Notes under the pieces: model-generated
The model's input: the letters and a program-made list of their open reading frames with translations, nothing else
Told to the model about the DNA's origin: nothing
Databases searched by the model: none
Assembly: GCF_006345805.1 (NCBI RefSeq)
Contig: NC_043001.1
Span: 119,412,001 to 119,476,000 of the forward strand
Source: Octopus sinensis
Lineage: Eukaryota
Reading direction: 5' to 3'
DNA: 64,000 bases
Made by a program: the position numbers and the translations under genes
Shown: one piece after another, positions 625 to 55,160 of the stretch
Layout of the letters: each line of letters starts with the position of its first letter
How positions within the stretch are numbered: position 1 is the first letter of the stretch

Positions 625-865
625 ATTTGATGTTACCTATTAAATAGACCTATGATCAAAATCCATTACAACCGTGACCATCCTGACTTTCCTAGACTCG
701 ATCAACTTGGAAGCACATTATCCGACGGTAGAAAGCCTACCATCTTGTTTTCATACAACAGACTCATAATTCTTTTTTCTTCTAATGAGATAGGGTATAG
801 TTTGAGGGAGATTTAGTTGCTCTTTCTAATAAGCCGAGTGACTGTGCTAAGGACTTTCTCGTTAG
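625..865 (+). repeat. Old dispersed repeat family A (representative copy)
   Basis: Shares gacctatgatcaaa...ccgtgaccatcc and gatttgagggagattt(a/g)g(c/t)tgctatttctagc...gaccac blocks with copies near 19615-19795, 24330-24535, 26480-26590(-), 29250-29420, 29995-30150, 32420-32570(-), 38085-38275, 41790-41945, 47790-47960, 48140-48330(-), 48415-48590, 52270-52455 and 52700-52910. Confidence 0.7.
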
Positions 866-1034
866 AGCGAATTTTTGACATTTGATTATTGTCAGTGAGG
901 TGTCTTCATTGCCACAATTGAGGCGATTGACACCGTTTATTTATTATGCCTTCAACAAAAGAAAAAAATGTCTAATTTTTTCACGAAGAAACAGAACTGC
1001 ACTTAGGGAATGAACAACTACACAGGAATTAATT

Positions 1035-8555: not shown

Positions 8556-8801
8556 GAATACAAAGGAGTAACAGAGAGAGAGAGGAGAAATGGGAAGACA
8601 GGAAAAGACGTCAACAAGAAACTATGGCATTACAACCAGCCAGGAACAGTCTTCGCTACATTTGCAGTACCTGCCAGAGGGAGTGTTTGTCCAGGATAGG
8701 ACTACACAGCCACAGCAGGAAATGTATCAGGACATGAAATGTAAAAGCCGGACTAGACTACTTTATGCGCAACTCCATTGTCTCCCGAGACAAAAGGATG
8801 C

Positions 8802-8807
<6 letters not shown>
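8556..8807 (+). mobile_element. 5'-truncated 3' end of the RTE LINE (second copy)
   Basis: About 250 bp matching 11912-12190. Encodes YICSTCQRECLSRIGLHSHSRKC and ends with a TGTCTC-CC-GAGACA stem-loop and a short CAA tail. Confidence 0.92.
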
Positions 8808-8859
<52 letters not shown>

Positions 8860-8873
8860 ATTATATATATATG

Positions 8874-8910
<37 letters not shown>

Positions 8911-8933
8911 TATATATATATGTATATATATAT

Positions 8934-11900
8934 AAAGTCAAGAAAACACCAGTTCTGCGGTTGGCAAGCTGGAATGTCAGGATCATGTGTCCTGGAATAT
9001 CTGATGATCTTCTCAGGATTGAAGACACAAGGAAAACGGCCATCATTGACCGTGAACTAAAGAGGCTCAACATAGATATTGCTGGGCTGCAGGAGAAAAG
9101 ACTTGCCTCAAACGGCAAACTCAAAGAGCAGGACTTCACCTTCTTTTGGCAGGGAAGAGATCCAGAAGAACCTCGTCAACATGGCGTTGGCTTTGCAGTG
9201 AGAAACTCACTACTCTCCTCAATAGAACCACCATCGGGAGGCACTGAGCGTATCCTCTCACTCCGCCTCTCGACTTCTTCTGGCTCAGTACATCTACTCA
9301 GTATCTATGCCCCCACTCTCTACAGCTCAGAGGAGACCAAGGACCAGTTCTACAAAGATCTCAACTGTGTCATAGAAAATATACCAACGACTGAAAATAT
9401 CTACCTTCTAGGGGATTTTAACGCTCGCGTGGGATCTGACCATGATTCGTGGCCCATTTGTGTTGGACACTTTGGTATTGGCAACATGAATGACAATGGT
9501 CAGAGACTACTCGAATTCTGCACATACCATAACAAGCCATCCCACAAGGCATCTTGGAGACATCCAAGTTCTCACCACTGGCATCAGCTGGATCTCATCA
9601 TTACACGGAGATCCTTTCTGAATTCTACTCTATTGACCCGCAGTTACCACAGCGCGGATTGTGACACAGACCACTCACTAATTAGAAGCAGGGTGAGGAT
9701 TCTGCCTAAAAAAGTCCATCGCTCCAAGGAAGTGGGCCGCCCACGCATCAACACCTCCAGAACCTCGGACCCTACACTGCGAAAATGTTTTGCTGCTTCT
9801 ATCAAGATTGCCCTCAGTAGCTGCCCAACCTCCTCTGCTGGAAGTAGGTGGGACTATATCAGGGAAGCCTTGTATACGACATCATTGGATACTTTCGGCA
9901 TGAGAGAAAGGCAAAACCCAGATTGGTTCAATGCTGGGCTCTCAGAGCTAGAGCCAGTTATTGAAGCAAAGCGTGTAGCTCTGATGCAATACAAGAGTGA
10001 CTCTTCTACAAAGTCACTCGAAGAACTCAGAAAGGCACGAAATAAAACCCAACTGACAGCCAGACGCTGTGCAAATAGGTATTGGCAGGAAATCTGTCAG
10101 AGTATCCAGTCAGCTGCTGACAGGGCCGACACCCGTGGGATGTATGCCGGTTTGAAGAAGGCCCTCGGTCCATCCGCAACCAAGTCAGCCCCTCTGAAAT
10201 CAACTACTGGAGATCTCATCAGGGATCAAGGCAAGCAAATGGATAGATGGGTGGAGCACTACCAGGATCTCTACTCACGGGAGACCACAGTGGCTGAGGC
10301 TGCAGTCGAGAGTGTCAAGATCTTGCCAGTCATGTGCGAACTTGACAGTCCGCCATCTATAGCAGAGCTCACCAAGGCTGTTGACTCCTTAGTAGCAAGA
10401 AATAAGGCTCCGGGAAAAGACGGCATCCCCTCAGAGATCATCAAAGCCGGCAAAAACACCATCCTGCTTCGGCACCTTCATGAGCTTCTGTGTCAGTGCT
10501 GGGAGGAGGGTACAGTCCCTCAGTATATGCGGGATGCCAACATCATTACGCTCTACAAAAACAAAGGTGACCGTGGTGATTGTAACAATTACCGTGGCAT
10601 ATCCCTTCTAAGCACTGTTGGAAAGACCTTTGCCCGCGTTATCCTGGCCAGGCTACAACTACTTGCTTCTCGAATCTATCCGGAATCGCAGTGTGGCTTT
10701 AGAAGAAGCAGATCAACTATCGATATGATATTCTCCATACGCCAACTTCAGGAGAAGTCCAGAGAGCAGAAAATGCCATTATATATGGCCTTCATTGGTC
10801 TAACAAATGCTTTTGACTCGGTAAGCAGAACAAGCCTCTTCCTTCTGCTCCAAAAAATCGGATGTCCACCAAAGCTGCTGAGGATCATCAAGTCTTTCCA
10901 TGATGACATGCAAGGCACCATACAGCACAACGGTTCAACATCAGTCGCCTTCCAAATAAAAAACGGGGTAAAGCAAGGCTGTGCCTGTGCTCCTACATTA
11001 TTTGGCATCTTCTTCTCACTCTTACTTTCACATGCCTTTCAGACATCAGATGATGGAGTGTTTCTGCACAGTAGAAGTGACGGGAAACTGTTCAATCTCT
11101 CGCGCCTGCGTGCCAAGACCAAAATCAGAAACGTCCTGATCAAGGAGATGTTATTTGCTGATGATGCCGCTCTGGTAACACACACAGAAGAAGCCCTCCA
11201 AAGGCTCATTAACTGTTTTGAGCAAGCATGTAACGACTTTGGCTTAGCTATCAGCCTTAAGAAGACCAACATCATGGGCCAGGCTACATCGGTCATCCCA
11301 AACATACATATTGGAGACCACAGATTACAAGAGGTGGAGAAGTTTACCTATCTGGGCTCTACCGTCACCTACAACCTATCCCTTGACGCTGAGCTCAATA
11401 TACGCATTGGCAAGGCAGCTACTGCGATGGCCCAGCTCTCCAAAGGGGCTTGGGACAATAATAAGCTGACCAAGACCACGAAAATGAAGATTACCAGGCA
11501 TGTGTACTCAGCACTCTACTGTATGGAAGCGAGACTGGACGCTATACACACGCCAAGAGCGTCGCCTAAACATCTTTCACCTGCGCTGCCTCCGAAAAAT
11601 CCTCCGCATCAAGTAGCAGAATCATATCCCCAACAAAGATGTCCTCAGGCAAGCAGGAATACCAAGCATGTTTGCACTCCTCACACAAAGACGTATGAGA
11701 TGGCTTGGGCATGTTAGCCGTATGAAAGATGGCAGAATTCCCAAGGACATACTCTACGGAGAACTTGCTAGGGGTACTAGGTCTGTGGATAGACCGATCT
11801 TACGTTACAGGGATGTTTGCAAAAGGGATATGAAGGCCTGCAACATCAATATTAGCGGTTGGGAGGCAGTTGCCGGCAACCGTGGAGAATGGCGACGTAC

Positions 11901-12190: not shown

Positions 12191-12250
12191 ATATATATAT
12201 ATGTATATATGTATATATATATATATATATTATATATATATATATATATA

Positions 12251-13030
12251 CACTATCTGAGAGAGATCTTCTTTAAGTATTAGAAATAGCTGAAGAAATT
12301 TCTTTAGCTGCTATTTCTAATGAGTTCAGTATGTGGCAAAGTAATTTATTTTACTAAGCCCTTATATATAATGTAATATTTTGAATTCGCCTATAATGGT
12401 CCCTTTACATACTGAATACTTGGTGAAATTGATTAATAATTAATTAATTTTACCCTCAATTGTTGAAATTATAATTCATCTCTCTCTGCTAAATGCTGCG
12501 GTTTTCACCGTTAATACATGGTGTTTGTCAATTTTAACCCACGCTGGTGGAAAAGGGAGAGCAGAAATTCTTCGCTTGCATATTCGAATTTGATAGCACT
12601 TTTAGTTCGAGCAGAATTCTAGAGGTGATTAGAAGCCGAAAGGGTATGCTCCCGACTTTCAGTGTTCCCAAATCCGATTCAAGGAATTCTGAGCTGAAGA
12701 AAGAAATGTCGAATTGACTAATCTAGAAACGTACGTTCTCAAATAACCTTTGCACTTGATTTTTTAATGTTTTTTCCCCCATACTTTTGTGAGTTGGTTT
12801 AGGCAAACACTATCTGAGAGACATCTTCTTTAAGTATTAGAAATAGCTGAAGAAATTTCTTTAGCTGCTATTTCTAATGAGTTCAGTATGTGGCAAAGTA
12901 ATTTATTTTACTAAGCCCTTATATATAATGTAATATTTTGAATTCGCCTATAATGGTCCCTTTACATACTGAATACTTGGTGAAATTGATTAATAATTAA
13001 TTAATTTTACCCTCAATTGTTGAAATTATA
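12251..13030 (+). mobile_element. Non-coding HHR-bearing element, 1.4 copies of a 557-bp unit (retrozyme/PLE pseudo-LTR-like, family B)
   Basis: 223-bp direct repeats at 12251-12473 and 12808-13030 (one visible substitution), an HHR between them, and (TA)n on both sides. Confidence 0.85.
12690..12741 (+). ncRNA. Type-I hammerhead ribozyme
   Basis: TGAG-CTGAAGA-A-AGA(aatGTCgaattGACtaa)TCT-A-GAA-ACGTACGT-T-CTCA: intact CUGANGA and GAAA, stem I TGAG/CTCA, palindromic stem III. Confidence 0.8.
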
Positions 13031-15369: not shown

Positions 15370-17810
15370 AGATGGAAAACAAAACTTGCAGAAAACATCA
15401 ACGACGTGCGCCGCCATATTGGATGGTTAACTACAAGAATAAAATGTAAGGAGAAAAATGAGTTTACGCCTCACCAACTCTACCTTGGACAACAATTAAC
15501 GAAACTTTATGGAAACTCTTCGCACCGAGCTCTTTGAAACATGAACTCAGGACGATGAGCGGGAAATTCCGCTATCGCAAGCAAATTTTCGAGCGAGCCA
15601 GTATCAATTGCAAGTTTGCTTTCAACCCACAAGCATTATACAGGCAGATGAAGAAGGAAAATGCTACCATTGAGAAAGCTCCCTCCCAAGATCTACAATT
15701 TGAACCGAAAAGAGGGATTTCAACCTGAATGCATCATGTTAAATACAATTGAGAAAGAATAGTGTACCAACACTAAGAGTAAAATATACAAAATTGATGC
15801 AGAAACTTTCGCTAGAGCAGTAGGTATAAACCGCAGAATGGGAAGGCACCTGGAAGTGACCTAATAGTTGGATATTGATACAAGAAGCTGACATTTTATA
15901 GAAACCAATTGATATGTATGTTCAAAAGGACTATGGAAGGTAAGGCTGATATACTAATTAGCTTGCTACAGCAAGGACAAATCTTGTTGCCAAAAATGAA
16001 ATCACCGAAATGGCAGGAAATTACAGGCCTATTGCTTGCTTAAACATTAGGTACAAACTGTACATAAGCTGCCTCAACCAATTCCTCCAGGACCATTGTG
16101 AGTCGAACAACATTGTGACTGATGAACAGGCTGGTGGAAAGACGGAAGTGTGGGGATGTGCTGAACAACTTTTAATAAGCAAAGCTGGACTGTCTGAAGT
16201 AAGAAAACAACGCAGAAACCTTGTGACAGTATGGCTTGACTCTGTCCCTCATTCATGGCTCTTGAAATACCTACATCTGGCAAAAGTACCTACTACCTTA
16301 ATTGCTGTTATAGAGAGACTCACAAAGACATGGACAACTATTCTTACCCTTACAACTGAGAATAGAATAATTGTTTCTAATAGTATAAGCATTACAAAGG
16401 GAATATTCCAGGGAGATAGTGTTTCTGTACTTCTTTTCATTTTGGCACTGAATCCATTATTGTTCCTACTGCAGAAAACAAATGGTTGCATGCTAAGATC
16501 TTCAACTGCCAGAAATATCAATGCAACTCATAATTTCTTTGGAAACGACCTGAAGATTTATACTAAAAATGTTAACAATACAAAAAAAAAACAAAAACAA
16601 CTGAAATTAATAACATTTTCAGCTGATATAGGTATGGAAGTTCGCCTAAAGAAATGTTCATATTTGGTTAAAGAACGAGGAAAGTCAGTCCCCTAAACCC
16701 AAAACCTGTGCATAAACGGTTTCTCTATCTCCCCTATTCCACACAAAGAATGTTACAAGTACCTGGGCATAGATGAAAAGGTATCATATAAAGGCACTGT
16801 GAATAAAGATAGAGCGACCCGAGAATATTACACCAGACTTAGGAAAATATGGCAGTCGGAACTCTCCTCTTACAACAAAACAATGGTATCACTCAGGCAG
16901 CACCTGCTAAACAAAAGCAGCAAATATAAATATATTAATTCAGTCCTGAAAAGTGGAGTGAGCAACATTGTACGAATTGGCCGTGAACTCCTCAAGAAAC
17001 ACTCTCTTCCTGATGATCCTGATGATACAGCCCCAAAACAGCTGGGCTCTCTTACCTCAGAGAAGACCTGGATGGAAAGTAATCAGCATACAAAAAAGAC
17101 GATGCGTGGGTATGCTGCCCGGAAGCTTGAAGAAGACAACAGAATTGACCCGAAACGAGCCTCTCTTGAACACAAGACCACAACATCACATCACAATTTC
17201 AAGGCTATGTGTTTGCAATCCAGGAACAGGAGACTGCCACAAAGTACCTGGTGAACAAGAGAGGCAGTGACGCTATTGTGATCCCAAGGTGCAACCGCAT
17301 GTGTAGGCTATGTTATGTTCTGTGGAAGACATTACGCATGTGATTAGCAGCAGTCCTAAAATGTCGTCCGGTACTACCTCCCTATTCAGCGCGATGAGGG
17401 GCCAAGGTGTATACCATCATAGAGGTCAGCTATCCTTAGATATAAATATCTCTTTGAAAATCAAAGAAAAAGAAGATATCTATGGAGAACTGCTTCGAAA
17501 CCTCCAGCTTCTATATCCAGACTATGAATTCATATTCATACCAATAATAATTGGAGCACTAGGTTTTGTTAGTAAATGTCTAAAGGAGAATCTGGATAAA
17601 ATGAGATTTTCAGAAAGTGAAATTGGCCGGCTGATTCGTACATTACAAATACAATCTGTGAGTGGAACAGTAAAAATATGCAAGACCTTTCTGAAGTTCC
17701 AAATGTGAATTTGTCTGTGTTAACTACATCGCAATGATGGAGCCTTGGGTCTAAGTTAGAAATTGGTTCATTCTCTATTCGCAAGAAATCTTGAAATAAA
17801 CTGAATAATG
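15370..17810 (+). mobile_element. R4/Dong-like RLE non-LTR retrotransposon, decayed
   Basis: RT motifs GNYRPIACLN, DEQAGG, WLDSVPHSW, KGIFQGDS and YKYLGI; zinc-knuckle remnant CRLC..EDITHVISS; C-terminal KEDIYGELLRNLQLLYP...FIPIIIGALG. Many stops and frameshifts. The 3' end abuts (TACA)n. Confidence 0.88.
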
Positions 17811-32350: not shown

Positions 32351-33265
32351 CTTCATCTCTTGATGACACCGCTGCCACACCCCTCAAGTGTTCCTGAAAC
32401 TCTCATCTTGTTACAATATTAAACAAATTTCCCTCATATTACATCGTATTTTAGAAGAAAATGAAGGATACTCTACATTATGCAGCCTTGAATGTTTGAA
32501 AAGTGGGACTGGCCTATGCTAGAACGTCTTTGATCATAGATCTGTAGCACCAAAGTGAGATTGAACAACGAAAACAGCAGCAATAACATATCGAAAGGCT
32601 TCAGATATTTTTATTATATCTGAAAAAGAAAAAAAAAAGAAAAAAAAGGCTGTAGCTATTTAATGTGTATTTACTTCGGCGACTGGCTTGATCAAGTTTA
32701 TAAATATTTTCTAGGTTGGAACTGGCATTCATTTTCCCTTATAATACATTTATAAACAACTTTTTAAAAAGAAAGAATCTAGAATTATGACTTGAATGCA
32801 CATTTGAAATGTTTTGCTCTCTTTTTTATCTTATTATTTATTTCTTTATTTCTTCTTATCGATTTGCTTGGTTATCTATATTGCTTATAGATTAGCTTTT
32901 CGTTTAGCTAAAAGTTTTTTTTGCAAACTAAAAGCAACAATCTGTGTTATATGCATGCACACTCTGCATAGATATTTGAATGAATGTGCGCATGCGCATG
33001 CAAAATTATATGCGCTAATAAAAACATCTATGTATGTATGTATCTATCCCTAACTTATAGATGTATAATTAATATGAACAGCAGTTTGCAGTGTTTCACC
33101 AAAAAGGAGAAATATATATGTCACTAGATTCGACTAGGGTGTTAGAAAATGCCAACAGTGCTAGAAATAAGAGCTAAAACGCACAAATGCTGTAGTTGAC
33201 GCACATGAATGAAAACATATACACAAACAGGAACCATAATCAGACGAAAGTGCCAGTCGAGAATT

Positions 33266-33316
33266 CTTGATGCTGACGCGTTAGTTTCGGCAATTTCCAT
33301 CGCCTCATCAGTCAAG
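33266..33316 (-). ncRNA. Type-I hammerhead ribozyme
   Basis: CTTGA-CTGATGA-GGCGAT ggaa ATTGCC-GAA-ACTAAC gc GTCAGC-A-TCAAG; U16.1 is mutated to C. Confidence 0.85.
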
Positions 33317-33838
33317 GCAGCATGTCCTCTGTACCTTCTGGACTCGCTTCGCCATTAGTATTTGTTTTCGTCGTCCAAATAATTGGATGATTTAGCGATT
33401 CGCTAATGTGTATACATAAAATTAACATGAGCAGCAGTTTGCGATGTTTTACCAAAAAAGGAGAATAATAAATGTCACTAAATGCGACTAGGGTGTTGGA
33501 AATCATCTGCATTGCTATAAATACGAATTCTCGACCGGCACTTTTCGGATGATTATGGTCCCTGTTAGTGTAGATGCTTTCATTCATGTACAGTAACTAC
33601 AGCATTTGAGCGTTTTAGCTCTTATATCTAGCAATGTAGCTGTTTTATAACACCCTAGTCGCATTTGGTGACATTTGTAATTCTCTTTTTTGGTGAAACA
33701 TTGCAAACTGTTGTTCATATTAATTTTGTACATACACATTTGCCATTAGCGCATCGCTAAATCATCAAAATTATTTTGATGACGAAACTATAAATACTAA
33801 TGGCTAAGCGAGTTCGGAATGAGTTGAGGTCGAGCTCG

Positions 33839-33889
33839 CTTAACTGATGAGGCGACGAAAATGGCCGAAACTGACACGTCATTATTAAG
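33839..33889 (+). ncRNA. Type-I hammerhead ribozyme
   Basis: CTTAA-CTGATGA-GGC gacgaaaatg GCC-GAA-ACTGAC ac GTCATT-A-TTAAG; predicted cleavage after 33884. Confidence 0.85.
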
Positions 33890-34117
33890 AATTCTCGACC
33901 GGTACCTTTCGGACGATTATGTTCCTTGTTAGTGTATATGTTTTCATTTATGTACATTGACTGCGGCATTAAATCGTTTTAGTTCTTATTTCTAGCACTG
34001 TAGGTGTTTTCTAACACTCTAGACGCATTTATTTTATACACACACACACACACACACACACATACATACATATATATATATACTTGTGTACCTAAGCACT
34101 TACGCAGACGCTGGTAG

Positions 34118-45339: not shown

Positions 45340-45381
<42 letters not shown>

Positions 45382-45383
<2 letters not shown>

Positions 45384-45758
45384 ATAATTGAGGGTAAAAT
45401 TAATTAGTTATTAATCAATTTCACCAAGTAGTGTTCAGTATGTAAAAGGACCATTTAAGGCATATTCAAAATATTACATTATATAATTAGGGCTTAGTAA
45501 AATAAATTACTTTGCCACATACTGAACTTTCTAGAAATAACAGCCAAAAAGTTTTTTAGCCATTTCCACTACTTTAAGAAAAATTCTCCCAGCTAATGTT
45601 ACTCAAAAATAAATAATATTTTTGAGTAAACATTAGCTGGGAGAATTTTTCTTAAAGTAGTGGAAATGGCTAAAAAAATTTTTGGCTGTTATTTCTAGAA
45701 AGTTCAGTATGTGGCAAAGTAATTTATTTTACTAAGCCCTAATTATATAATGTAATAT
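45382..45758. mobile_element. Family B terminal repeat in inverted (foldback) arrangement
   Basis: Homologous to 12251-12473. Arms at 45471-45611 and 45617-45758 are near-perfect reverse complements with a 5-nt loop. Flanked by (TA)n. Confidence 0.88.
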
Positions 45759-53802: not shown

Positions 53803-54841
53803 CCTGCAGTTTGAAAGGTGGTGATTAGCTTATGCCATCGATTTCAGTACTTCGCTGGTACATAATCTTATCGATATCGGAGATCTGAGAAGTAAAATTG
53901 ACTTCGGTCGCATTTGAACTCGGAACGCTGAGAATATCGGCCGTGCGGTGTATGAAACATATTCAACGCCAATAAAATCACACTGATGGGGCATGAAGGA
54001 AGTCCAGCTGTTTGGATGTAAGACAGTACTTAACAGAGATAAAGACAGTTTCATGACAGAGCGATAGCGATACGCCCTCTCTCCCCCCAATGAAACAAGT
54101 GGGACATAGGAAACGTCAGCCAACGGGTAAACCAGCAATGTCGAACAAGTTCATGTGAAAGAACAGTCAGTATATTACAAGAGGCCAAATCAGAGGAAAA
54201 AGCTGCATTTTACCCAGGCCGTCCAAACAACTCTGAAGCCGGATTTCATCTTGGAGTTTGAGAATGTAACGAAGATAATCTTCAATGAGTTGACAGTCCC
54301 AAGGGAAGATGGGTGCGATCAGGCCTTTGACTGAAAGAGTGCCGAGAAATAATAGACTTTAAATAATTGCAAGGAAAAGAGATGACAAGTATGGCTATTT
54401 TGAGATGTGGCGGACTGCAGAAAATAACATTGGAGTTATGAAAGGTAGCAGTATAACACACACACACACACAAACAAACAAACACACACACACACACACC
54501 ACACACACACACACACACACACCACACACACACACAAACAAACAAACACATAGATTATTCATCTATTTTATACGTATATATATATACTATCTATATATAT
54601 TTATGAAATATGTAGATTATACGTGATAAATATAATTTATATGTGTGTGTGTATGCATATAATTTATAAACATATTATTTATAAAATATGCATCTATTTA
54701 TCAAATATTATATTGTATATCATACATGCATCATATATGCATTATATATATACACGTAGTTTGCTTTTGAATTGTACACATTGTATACCTTATATGCAAT
54801 TATATTATATACATACATTTACACATAAATTTATAAATAAG

Positions 54842-55160
54842 GATAATATCGATATTTAAATATCGATATTATCAAGTGGCCAGCATAGGAAAAATACCAT
54901 ACAAAGGTAATAATTTTTTTACAACTAAAAATAAGGGTGTCTGAGAGACGCCACCATACCGAAATAGCAGTCAAAACCCTGACTCTAAGAACCACGTTAA
55001 ATGTTCATATCGCACCATGAGATAAGATAGAGGGACAAAATAGAGTAGCAAAAAATATTACTGAATAATTCAAGATCCTGGATTTCTAGCTTTGCTTTAA
55101 ATAAGCTTTGCCTCATCAGTTGAATAAATCAGATAGGCACAGAAATACAAATAAAAATAT
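54842..55160 (-). mobile_element. HHR-bearing PLE-type terminal element (family C)
   Basis: HHR at 55068-55125(-), the shared downstream motif at 54934-54975(-) and a terminal 32-bp palindrome at 54842-54873. Confidence 0.7.
55068..55125 (-). ncRNA. Type-I hammerhead ribozyme
   Basis: ATTCAA-CTGATGA-GGC aaa GCTT attta AAGC aaa GCT-A-GAA-ATCC a GGAT-C-TTGAAT: 6-bp stem I and an AUC cleavage triplet. Confidence 0.8.

What the first reader, a model, noticed from the sequence alone, without database searches (positions are those of the whole stretch)
12860..12919. Unexplained second motif shared by three different HHR-bearing families, 90-120 nt downstream of the ribozyme
Seen, always on the same strand as the HHR. 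Family B: TTTAGCTGCTATTTC-taatgagttcagtatg-TGGC-aa agtaa tttatt ttact aa-GCCCT (12860-12919; also 12303-12362 and 45681-45740). Family C: TTTGACTGCTATTTC-ggtatgg-TGGC-gtct ctc agac-ACCCT (54975-54934, minus). Family D: TTTAGCTCTTATTTC-tagcactgt-TGGC-attttctaac-ACCCT (33178-33136 minus; eroded at 33614 and 33978). The families have different HHR stems and otherwise look unrelated by eye, yet they keep TTTRRCTSYTATTTC...TGGC...RCCCT at a similar distance from the cleavage site. In family B the spacer (ttcagtatgt) also pairs with acatactgaa further downstream. Inference: a conserved cis-module working with the HHR, for example an RT-recognition or priming structure, a second catalytic or ligation element, or an internal promoter (CTGCTATTTCTAGCA loosely resembles the ZNF143/Staf site CTACAATTCCCAGCA). 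I do not recognise it as a described motif.
Basis: partly seen in the sequence, partly recalled or inferred. Interest (0 to 1): 0.85.

Follow-up and report, generated by a model that had tools for sequence, protein, structure and literature searches.

The report
Retrozyme end-signal for reverse transcription
The motif is real: it is part of a predicted folded RNA domain at the end of several ribozyme-bearing jumping repeats, its hairpin lies about ten bases before the points where inserted copies stop, and it likely tells a Penelope-type enzyme where to start copying the RNA back into DNA.

Summary
Observation confirmed; interpretation refined. The 15-mer has 56,591 exact genome matches against 148 for the reversed control. 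It lies 74-127 nt 3' of type I hammerheads in several Penelope-type non-autonomous tandem repeats (retrozymes), but also in hammerhead-less repeats, and most other hammerhead families lack it. TGGC...RCCCT is the closing stem of a hairpin (GGY/RCC, compensatory changes), and the spacer pairs with a strand about 80 nt downstream. Insertions have two 3' ends: a short one 0-19 nt after that hairpin, and a long one about 100 nt further on, about 11 nt after a second hairpin+CCT. All 28 classified inverted insertions have one end of each kind (27 independent). Five more repeat families (four with hammerheads) show a like end signal with the 15-mer eroded or absent. This fits the two internal start sites and 'tail' shown in vitro for an anole Penelope-like element. 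Best reading (0.55): an RNA domain bound by a Penelope-like protein that sets both start sites. The partner element was not found; nothing is shown biochemically. A Staf/snRNA promoter and a second ribozyme are not supported.

The parts
12250..13030 (+). Family B insertion, 1.4 units of a 557-bp tandem repeat, flanked by (TA)n; complete unit 12474-13030
   Evidence: arrays with 557-bp period elsewhere in G000
12691..12741 (+). Type I hammerhead motif of family B (core at 12694, palindromic helix III, predicted cut after 12737)
   Evidence: descriptor scans; activity not tested
12839..12875 (+). P1 hairpin; its 3' strand is the 15-mer (12860-12874). In B the changes fall on the 5' strand only
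12860..12874 (+). Conserved 15-mer TTTRRCTSYTATTTC (P1 3' strand and junction to P2)
12882..12891 (+).
   Evidence: A-U/G-C swap 9:9 among 19 B sequences
12892..12919 (+).
12964..12973 (+). P2 3' strand, inside the roughly 100-nt tail
12979..13013 (+). P5 terminal hairpin followed by CT; long 3' ends fall a median 11 nt after it (here about 13026)
12303..12362 (+). Second copy of the module in the 5'-truncated upstream unit (no hammerhead upstream)
45381..45758 (.). Inverted family B2 insertion: minus arm (motif 45548-45534) with long end, plus arm (motif 45681-45695, RCCCT ends 45740) with short end
   Evidence: the plus arm was left unclassified by the strict rule and is read by eye
54830..55125 (-). 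Family C copy: hammerhead core 55119, predicted cut 55074, 15-mer 54975-54961, P3 ends 54934, tail with P2 3' strand and P5 hairpin
33064..34031 (.). Family D insertion, inverted plus tandem (period 364): motifs 33178(-), 33614(+), 33978(+); eroded hammerheads (core 33844, predicted cut 33884)
639..882 (+). One of 15 window copies of old repeat O (about 215 bp, median 67% identity to consensus), which carries the 15-mer (812-826) but no canonical hammerhead core

Best explanation
The motif is part of a predicted folded 3' RNA domain shared by a superfamily of non-autonomous, hammerhead-bearing tandem repeats with Penelope-type insertions, and this domain likely is what a Penelope-like reverse transcriptase/endonuclease binds to fix its two internal start sites. 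Shown from sequence: the order hammerhead, 74-127 nt, P1 hairpin ending in the 15-mer, P2 5' strand, P3 hairpin (GGY..RCC)+CT, about 10 nt, SHORT END, A/T-rich loop, P2 3' strand, P5 hairpin+CCT, about 11 nt, LONG END; ends run into (TA)n; inverted insertions carry one end of each kind. Predicted: the helices (folding; covariation in B). Inferred: each 'hairpin + CT + about 10 nt' is a start signal for reverse transcription; P2 brings both hairpins into one domain; a dimeric protein nicks both strands of a (TA)n target and primes one cDNA at each site, giving one tailed and one tail-less arm. The 15-mer would be a sequence-read contact point at the P1/P2 junction in families B-F and O, and is replaceable, since G-K lack most of it.
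For: Ends: short ends 0-18 nt after RCCCT in 42 of 45 measured B copies, 0-14 in 5 of 5 C, 14-19 after the hairpin in 5 of 5 E, although motif-to-hairpin distance runs from 42 to 61 nt. Long ends 9-13 nt after the last hairpin+CCT in 25 of 35 (median 11). 28 of 28 classified divergent pairs are long+short (25 B, 3 C); one pair is a duplicate, leaving 27. Genome-wide and without the 15-mer: TGGC-N12-30-GCCCT-W10-N0-8-(TA)6 gives 671 forward matches vs 15 reversed control. Structure: unsupervised RNAalifold on 19 B sequences returns P1, P2, P3 with 4 compensatory pairs; 95.3% of cells paired, 6 pairs with two-sided change, 1 of 500 shuffles as high. Separate folds give the P2/P3 topology with unrelated sequence in C and E; window B and C domains fold at z -4.9 and -3.2. 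P1 shows no two-sided change, only changes on the strand opposite the motif, so the motif is held at sequence level. In 8 B units down to 53% identity the best 15-nt windows are the motif (0.95) and the tail (0.93-0.94), above the hammerhead (0.86-0.88; median 0.76). Literature: for the anole element PAc the RNA needed lies just 3' of the hammerhead, RT starts internally at two sites, the tail is the sequence between them, both strands are cut and extended, and the protein is predicted to be a dimer (PMC11167929, parts 1-2 of 4 read). Tandem/inverted insertions, a one-sided tail and (TA)n targets are PLE hallmarks (PMC8557442, passages).
Against: No autonomous partner found: the 3' regions of PLE ORFs in 30 GIY-YIG loci, 20 longer stretches and 2 x 30 loci of two other clades carry neither the 15-mer nor a blastn match to the units other than separate insertions. 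The tail is about 100 nt, not the 30-40 nt reported. The 15-mer occurs in repeats without a hammerhead (O, an 81-107-bp tandem, L089, L164), and O's polarity is unresolved, which a DNA-level role would explain as well. Family D fits less well: P2 is not in all of its predicted folds and its ends were mostly unclassified. Covariation cells follow two or three subfamily splits, so they are few independent events. Motif conservation scores are inflated because most copies were fetched by the motif. 11 copies were left unclassified before the pair count (7 B, 1 C, 3 D), and short ends at 0 are ambiguous where the element's own TATATA merges with the target. Families G-K rest on one locus each, folded over their last 200 nt only. 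Sequence cannot tell RNA-level start sites from cDNA-level cutting. No biochemical data and no raw reads.
Confidence: 0.55

Rival explanations
1. The same hairpins act on the DNA intermediate: the GIY-YIG endonuclease cuts single-stranded or cruciform cDNA about 10 nt from the hairpin to resolve a concatemer, so the short end is a cut, not an RT start.
For: PMC8557442 (passages) ascribes the tail to endonuclease-mediated resolution. End positions fit a ruler-type cut equally well, and the sequence after P3 is A/T-rich like the target.
Against: In PAc both tail boundaries were mapped as RT start sites in vitro. G-U pairs are well tolerated in P1-P3, as expected for RNA.
Confidence: 0.15
2. The hairpins set the ends, but the 15-mer itself is a double-stranded DNA site for a host factor (internal promoter or enhancer) that these repeats keep or capture.
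For: The 15-mer is kept while its pairing partner changes between families. It recurs in hammerhead-less repeats and is multimerised in an 81-107-bp tandem inside a larger repeat. PLEs have internal promoters (PMC2377424, abstract only).
Against: Not found in 400 nt upstream of 20 of 48 U6 hits fetched; the 4 with octamer- and TATA-like boxes score -2.1 to 7.3 against 21-25 for true copies. It lies 3' of the cut, inside the RNA domain. Other promoter-like boxes sit 100-200 nt upstream of the hammerhead (motif names recalled). In 25 old O copies not chosen by the motif it is only slightly better kept (0.78 vs 0.49-0.74). Families G-K spread without it.
Confidence: 0.15
3. The 15-mer is only the last recognisable trace of common descent, kept by P1 pairing and recent shared ancestry, with no sequence-specific role.
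For: It is lost or eroded in G, H, I, J, K. E and F, and F and O, share more than the 15-mer. Ascertainment favours it.
Against: Flanks between B, C, D, E, F, O are at chance level while the motif is 11-15 of 15 identical. In B the partner strand takes all the changes. L275, found hammerhead-first through Rfam, still carries a 3-mismatch variant about 75 nt after the cut.
Confidence: 0.1
4. The motif is a second catalytic RNA, for example part of an HDV-like fold on the opposite strand.
For: The reverse strand of the O consensus can be drawn with P2-, P3/L3-, P4- and J4/2-like pieces (by eye; HDV layout recalled).
Against: P1 reaches only 4-5 pairs and the second pseudoknot pair fails (by eye). 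No register keeps the J4/2 cytosine in all families, and a C-to-U change there inactivates such ribozymes (PMC10879173, passages). B, D and E lack the other helices. No Rfam ribozyme match at E<=10 on three stretches.
Confidence: 0.05

Closest known systems
Non-LTR (metazoan) retrozymes (PMC7229834, passages; bioRxiv 10.64898/2026.07.22.740005, parts 1-3 of 5)
   Same: Non-coding tandem units of about 360-590 bp, each with a type I hammerhead, A/T-rich, thousands of copies; proposed to be non-autonomous derivatives of PLE pLTRs.
   Different: The text read describes no conserved 3' structured domain, no paired long/short ends and no start signal; units here reach 557-590 bp; circular RNA and cleavage were not tested here.
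pLTR and 'tail' of Penelope-like elements; internal RT initiation in PAc, Poseidon of Anolis (PMC11167929; PMC8557442)
   Same: The cis region lies just 3' of the hammerhead; two discrete 3' ends with a tail between them; A/T-rich targets; partial tandem and inverted insertions.
   Different: The tail is about 100 nt rather than 30-40; both ends follow the same hairpin+CT signal and the tail pairs back (P2); starts are not in an AC-rich loop; no ORF; strict long+short pairing is not reported in the parts read.
3' stem-loops shared by LINE/SINE partners, and SINE superfamily core domains (CORE, V, Deu, Ceph, Meta; search listing only)
   Same: A short conserved block shared by otherwise unalignable non-autonomous families, read as a recognition signal for the partner enzyme (recalled analogy).
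   Different: No tRNA head was seen in the units; PLE-type insertions; the block is 15 nt plus structure; no sequence comparison with those domains was possible.

Membership tests
Non-LTR retrozyme | Type I hammerhead in each unit | tested here: met
   Cores, helix I and helix III in B, C, D, E; window D copies eroded
Non-LTR retrozyme | Short non-coding head-to-tail tandem units | tested here: met
   B 557, B4 about 587, E about 485, D 364 bp; longest ATG frame in the units examined 70 aa
Non-LTR retrozyme | Self-cleavage and accumulation of linear/circular monomer RNA | not testable with these tools
   Only assembled contigs of runs guessed to be RNA were available
Non-autonomous Penelope-like element | 5'-truncated tandem and inverted insertions with a tail on one side | tested here: met
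   28 of 28 classified pairs long+short
Non-autonomous Penelope-like element | Insertion into A/T-rich or (TA)n targets | tested here: met
Non-autonomous Penelope-like element | Sequence shared with the pLTR of an autonomous PLE in the same genome | tested here: inconclusive
   No match in 110 PLE-bearing stretches from the best-scoring families; only the top hits of three protein searches were seen
Non-autonomous Penelope-like element | Tail of 30-40 bp | tested here: not met
   About 95-100 nt in B and C
ZNF143/Staf or snRNA-type promoter element | Present upstream of the genome's own U6 genes | tested here: not met
   20 of 48 hits, 400 nt each, 4 with promoter-like boxes; a weak test, since a Staf site at these genes is itself unknown
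ZNF143/Staf or snRNA-type promoter element | Factor binding and promoter activity | not testable with these tools
   needs experiment
HDV-like ribozyme (opposite strand) | Nested double pseudoknot with full P1 and P1.1 | tested here: not met
   By eye on the O consensus; no Rfam match
HDV-like ribozyme (opposite strand) | Invariant catalytic cytosine in J4/2 | tested here: not met
   Motif variants break either register; criterion from PMC10879173 passages
Any Rfam 15 family | Match at gathering score | tested here: not met
   (best 150 of 279 rows seen, all below gathering score)

The most novel reading that the evidence does not exclude
One folded RNA domain carries two copies of the same start signal (hairpin, CT, about 10 nt), clamped together by a long-range helix, so that the two subunits of a Penelope-type protein prime both target strands at once, one at each signal. 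This would explain the inverted insertions and the one-sided tail of Penelope-like elements in one mechanism, and would be the first defined RNA recognition element for this class, shared by some ten repeat families in one genome.
Probability: 0.35. Interest if true: 0.8.

Novelty: new variant of a known kind. Interest (0 to 1): 0.55.

Why it matters
How Penelope-like elements choose their RNA, where they start copying, and why insertions are inverted with a tail on one side are open questions; one element has been studied in vitro. Here many diverged families in one genome give a natural alignment: a covarying domain, two end classes placed by the same local signal, and 27 independent inverted insertions that all pair a long with a short end. 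That yields precise mutants to test and a structural descriptor for finding partner elements and for classifying thousands of repeats that pipelines are likely to leave unclassified. The host class (retrozymes, PLE mini-elements) is known, so the gain is mechanistic, not a new kind of element.

Tried and rejected
Partner search: GIY-YIG family search and two protein searches; ORF pieces beside motif arrays (L036, L112, L051, L021, L153) were separate insertions. Staf/snRNA promoter: not supported. Antisense HDV-like fold and other ribozymes: not met. Pairing of the 15-mer with the hammerhead GAAA: no covariation across families, by eye. Rfam on the whole window gave only microsatellite-driven microRNA matches among the rows shown; the Rfam hammerhead model found just 7 genome matches, so it cannot census hammerheads. 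Metagenome pattern scan: 24 loci, all look like chance matches without hammerheads, so the range outside this genome is unknown. Expression: no RNA holder on record; contigs of 4 runs guessed to be RNA cover the unit but show no ends, strand or circles; no evidence either way. Two loose end-calling rules mis-called internal A/T stretches and were replaced; one boundary scan over-filtered and was redone. Literature: three 13-mer spellings of the motif are in 0 papers; searches listed no description of this module. Figures, subscription journals, Dfam/Repbase and bioRxiv supplements could not be seen, and the Lunse et al. paper on PLE hammerheads was not held. The octopus repeat paper has no mention of ribozymes (PMC13282606, part 1 of 3 and term search). 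Look-ups of earlier findings by place and by sequence were empty.

Full report
1. Observation. The genome G000 (2.72 Gb) has 56,591 exact matches against 148 for the reversed pattern and 2,727 against 0 for the full pattern with TGGC..RCCCT. That the animal is an octopus is my inference from genome size and repeat content, not a tested result.

2. What carries it. Family B is a 557-bp tandem unit with copies 99-100% identical across the genome. I read the first 30 loci, 30 and 40 further stretches. Clustering gave many B subfamilies and families C, D, E, F. Type I hammerhead cores lie upstream on the same strand with the predicted cut 74 nt (E), 93-94 (D), 94-99 (C) or 113-127 (B) before the 15-mer; F shows only a partial core in one truncated copy. 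Units are non-coding, tandem or inverted, 5'-truncated, and end in (TA)n. This is the anatomy of non-LTR retrozymes and PLE mini-elements (PMC7229834 passages; bioRxiv 10.64898/2026.07.22.740005 parts 1-3 of 5; PMC8557442 passages; PMC4209133 part 1 of 4).

3. The link to hammerheads is family-specific. In 540 kb fetched without regard to the motif, 2 of 17 hammerhead-like motifs have it at +50 to +150, both in the window; shuffles give no hammerheads. That scan missed D and L275; L275, found through Rfam, has a 3-mismatch variant. Conversely O (about 215 bp, 15 window copies, median 67% identity to consensus) and an 81-107-bp tandem derived from it carry the 15-mer with no canonical core. O has (GTT)n on the motif-upstream side and its polarity is unresolved.

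4. Excess conservation. Between single copies of B, C, D, E, F and O the flanks align at chance level (15 pairs; upstream z at most 2.0, largest downstream z 2.9) while the 15-mer is 11-15 of 15 identical. Within 8 B units down to 53% identity (one has a chimeric 5' part) the best windows are the motif (0.95) and the tail (0.93-0.94), above the hammerhead (0.86-0.88) and the median (0.76). Both results favour the motif by ascertainment. In 25 old O copies not chosen by the motif the excess is small (0.78 vs 0.49-0.74).

5. Structure. Single-sequence folds of B, C and E give the same topology with unrelated sequence: P1 ending in the 15-mer, a long-range P2 starting just after it, a P3 hairpin on top of P2, and a terminal P5 hairpin (output partly cut; z -4.9 and -3.2). 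D fits in part. RNAalifold on 19 B sequences returns P1, P2 and P3 unprompted, with 4 compensatory pairs, among them C-G/U-A in GGY/RCC (8:8) and A-U/G-C in P2 (9:9). For my four-helix model 95.3% of cells pair and 6 pairs change on both sides (1 of 500 shuffles; slid controls 36-48% paired); these follow a few subfamily splits. So TGGC..RCCCT is a closing stem, not a sequence box. P1 has no two-sided change: the upstream strand varies and the motif strand does not.

6. Ends. With strict rules, B copies fall into 47 short ends, 42 long ends, 56 continuing and 7 unclassified; C into 5, 5, 2, 1; E into 5 short and 7 continuing; D into 1 long, 2 continuing, 3 unclassified. Short ends lie 0-18 nt after RCCCT in 42 of 45 measured B copies, 0-14 in 5 of 5 C and 14-19 after the hairpin in 5 of 5 E. 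Long ends lie about 95-100 nt further on, 9-13 nt after a second hairpin+CCT in 25 of 35 cases, median 11. All 28 divergent pairs with both ends classified are long+short; one is a segmental duplicate, leaving 27, against about half expected if ends were independent. Without using the 15-mer, the P3+short-end pattern gives 671 forward matches against 15 (reverse-strand counts are inflated by overlaps).

7. The hairpin half is the more general part. A scan of 422 (TA)n boundaries in loci fetched through PLE proteins found 35 with RYCCT in the last 25 nt, 9 of them with the 15-mer upstream. Among the rest are five further families: G (L174; hammerhead, tandem, inverted long+short pair, C-like tail, only the final TTTC of the 15-mer), H (L220; hammerhead, TGGC..GCCCT end), I (L227; hammerhead, hairpin-rich end with ACCCT), J (L166; hammerhead, first 9 letters of the 15-mer, GGTAC/GTACC stem) and K (L233; both end signals, no hammerhead in the truncated copy). 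Each rests on one locus, folded over 200 nt only. One search lists further GGC..GCC variants.

8. Mechanism. In PAc the RNA needed for activity lies just 3' of the hammerhead, RT starts internally at two sites, the genomic tail is the stretch between them, both target strands are cut and extended, and the protein is predicted to be a dimer (PMC11167929 parts 1-2 of 4). The domain here occupies the same place and has two ends with a tail between them. I infer that each hairpin+CT+about 10 nt marks a start, that P2 holds the two signals in one domain, and that one start is used on each target strand (0.55). The 15-mer would be a contact point read by sequence in families B-F and O. End positions and pairing are shown; helices are predicted, with covariation in B; binding and priming are inferred. 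Cutting of a cDNA intermediate (0.15), a DNA-level host-factor site (0.15), plain inheritance (0.10) and a second ribozyme (0.05) remain as rivals.

9. Against. No autonomous partner was found among 110 PLE-bearing stretches from the best hits of three searches ([output partly cut], 25, 31-34, 81, 92); clade names such as Neptune-like or Poseidon-like are resemblances I recall, not tested. The tail is longer than reported. Hammerhead-less carriers are unexplained. The Staf idea found no support upstream of U6, a weak test. An antisense HDV-like reading of O fails at P1, P1.1 and the catalytic cytosine, and Rfam has no match. There is no usable expression evidence.

10. Novelty and verdict. The motif's 13-mers are in no held paper and seven topic searches listed no such module; figures, repeat databases and closed supplements were not seen. 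Also seen: PMC6765202 passages, PMC10879173 passages, PMC2377424 abstract, PMC13282606 part 1 and term search. The elements belong to a known class; the covarying 3' domain, the doubled end signal and the strict long+short pairing appear undescribed and are directly testable. New variant of a known kind; interest 0.55.

Noticed in passing
window 639-882 and 14 more copies (19590, 24300, 26440, 29221, 29538, 29991, 32415, 38071, 41809, 47780, 48105, 48404, 52294, 52690): Very abundant old repeat O, about 215 bp, with (GTT)n at one end, the 15-mer near the other and no canonical hammerhead; tandem and inverted pairs occur; polarity and class unresolved.
   Followed up: partly
L245, L251-L255 and others: A young 81-107-bp tandem of an O-derived piece containing the 15-mer sits inside a larger dispersed repeat; its end resembles Helitron-type non-autonomous elements (recalled resemblance).
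   Followed up: partly
L233 about 1880-2067: Family K, with both end signals, is joined at its 5' side directly to the end of a PLE GIY-YIG reading frame: a possible template-switch chimera and a lead to the partner; one case.
   Followed up: no
L186-L190, 3' of the ORF: An abundant PLE family has a tRNA-like stretch and an (AAT/AAC)n run between its stop codon and its hammerhead.
   Followed up: no
L164, L165, L138, 3' ends: A PLE family carries the U3-A8 hammerhead core variant about 75 nt before its end (variant described in PMC4209133).
   Followed up: no
window 12540-12600; families C and E 100-130 nt upstream of the hammerhead (L103, L062): Conserved boxes that resemble E-box, GC-box, E2F and CHR promoter motifs (names recalled); better promoter candidates than the 15-mer.
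   Followed up: partly
window 12950-12954 and matching places in B, C, E tails: An ATG(G) is nearly invariant in a small hairpin just before the P2 3' strand; a relic start codon or a loop motif.
   Followed up: no
L164 (minus strand, near 147) and L089: The 15-mer also occurs as an inverted pair about 100 bp apart and as a 125-bp-spaced direct pair in repeats of other kinds.
   Followed up: no
window 8756-11900: A 986-codon stop-free frame with endonuclease- and reverse-transcriptase-like stretches (LINE, RTE-like by eye); further LINE pieces near 15961-17250.
   Followed up: no
G000:C1:141.92-141.95 Mb: A tandem array of about 20 U6-like genes with octamer- and TATA-like boxes upstream.
   Followed up: partly
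window 12250-13030, run X1: A>G is the commonest difference in contigs laid on family B (10 of 22 places in X1), as editing of a double-stranded RNA would give, but copies and alleles look the same.
   Followed up: no
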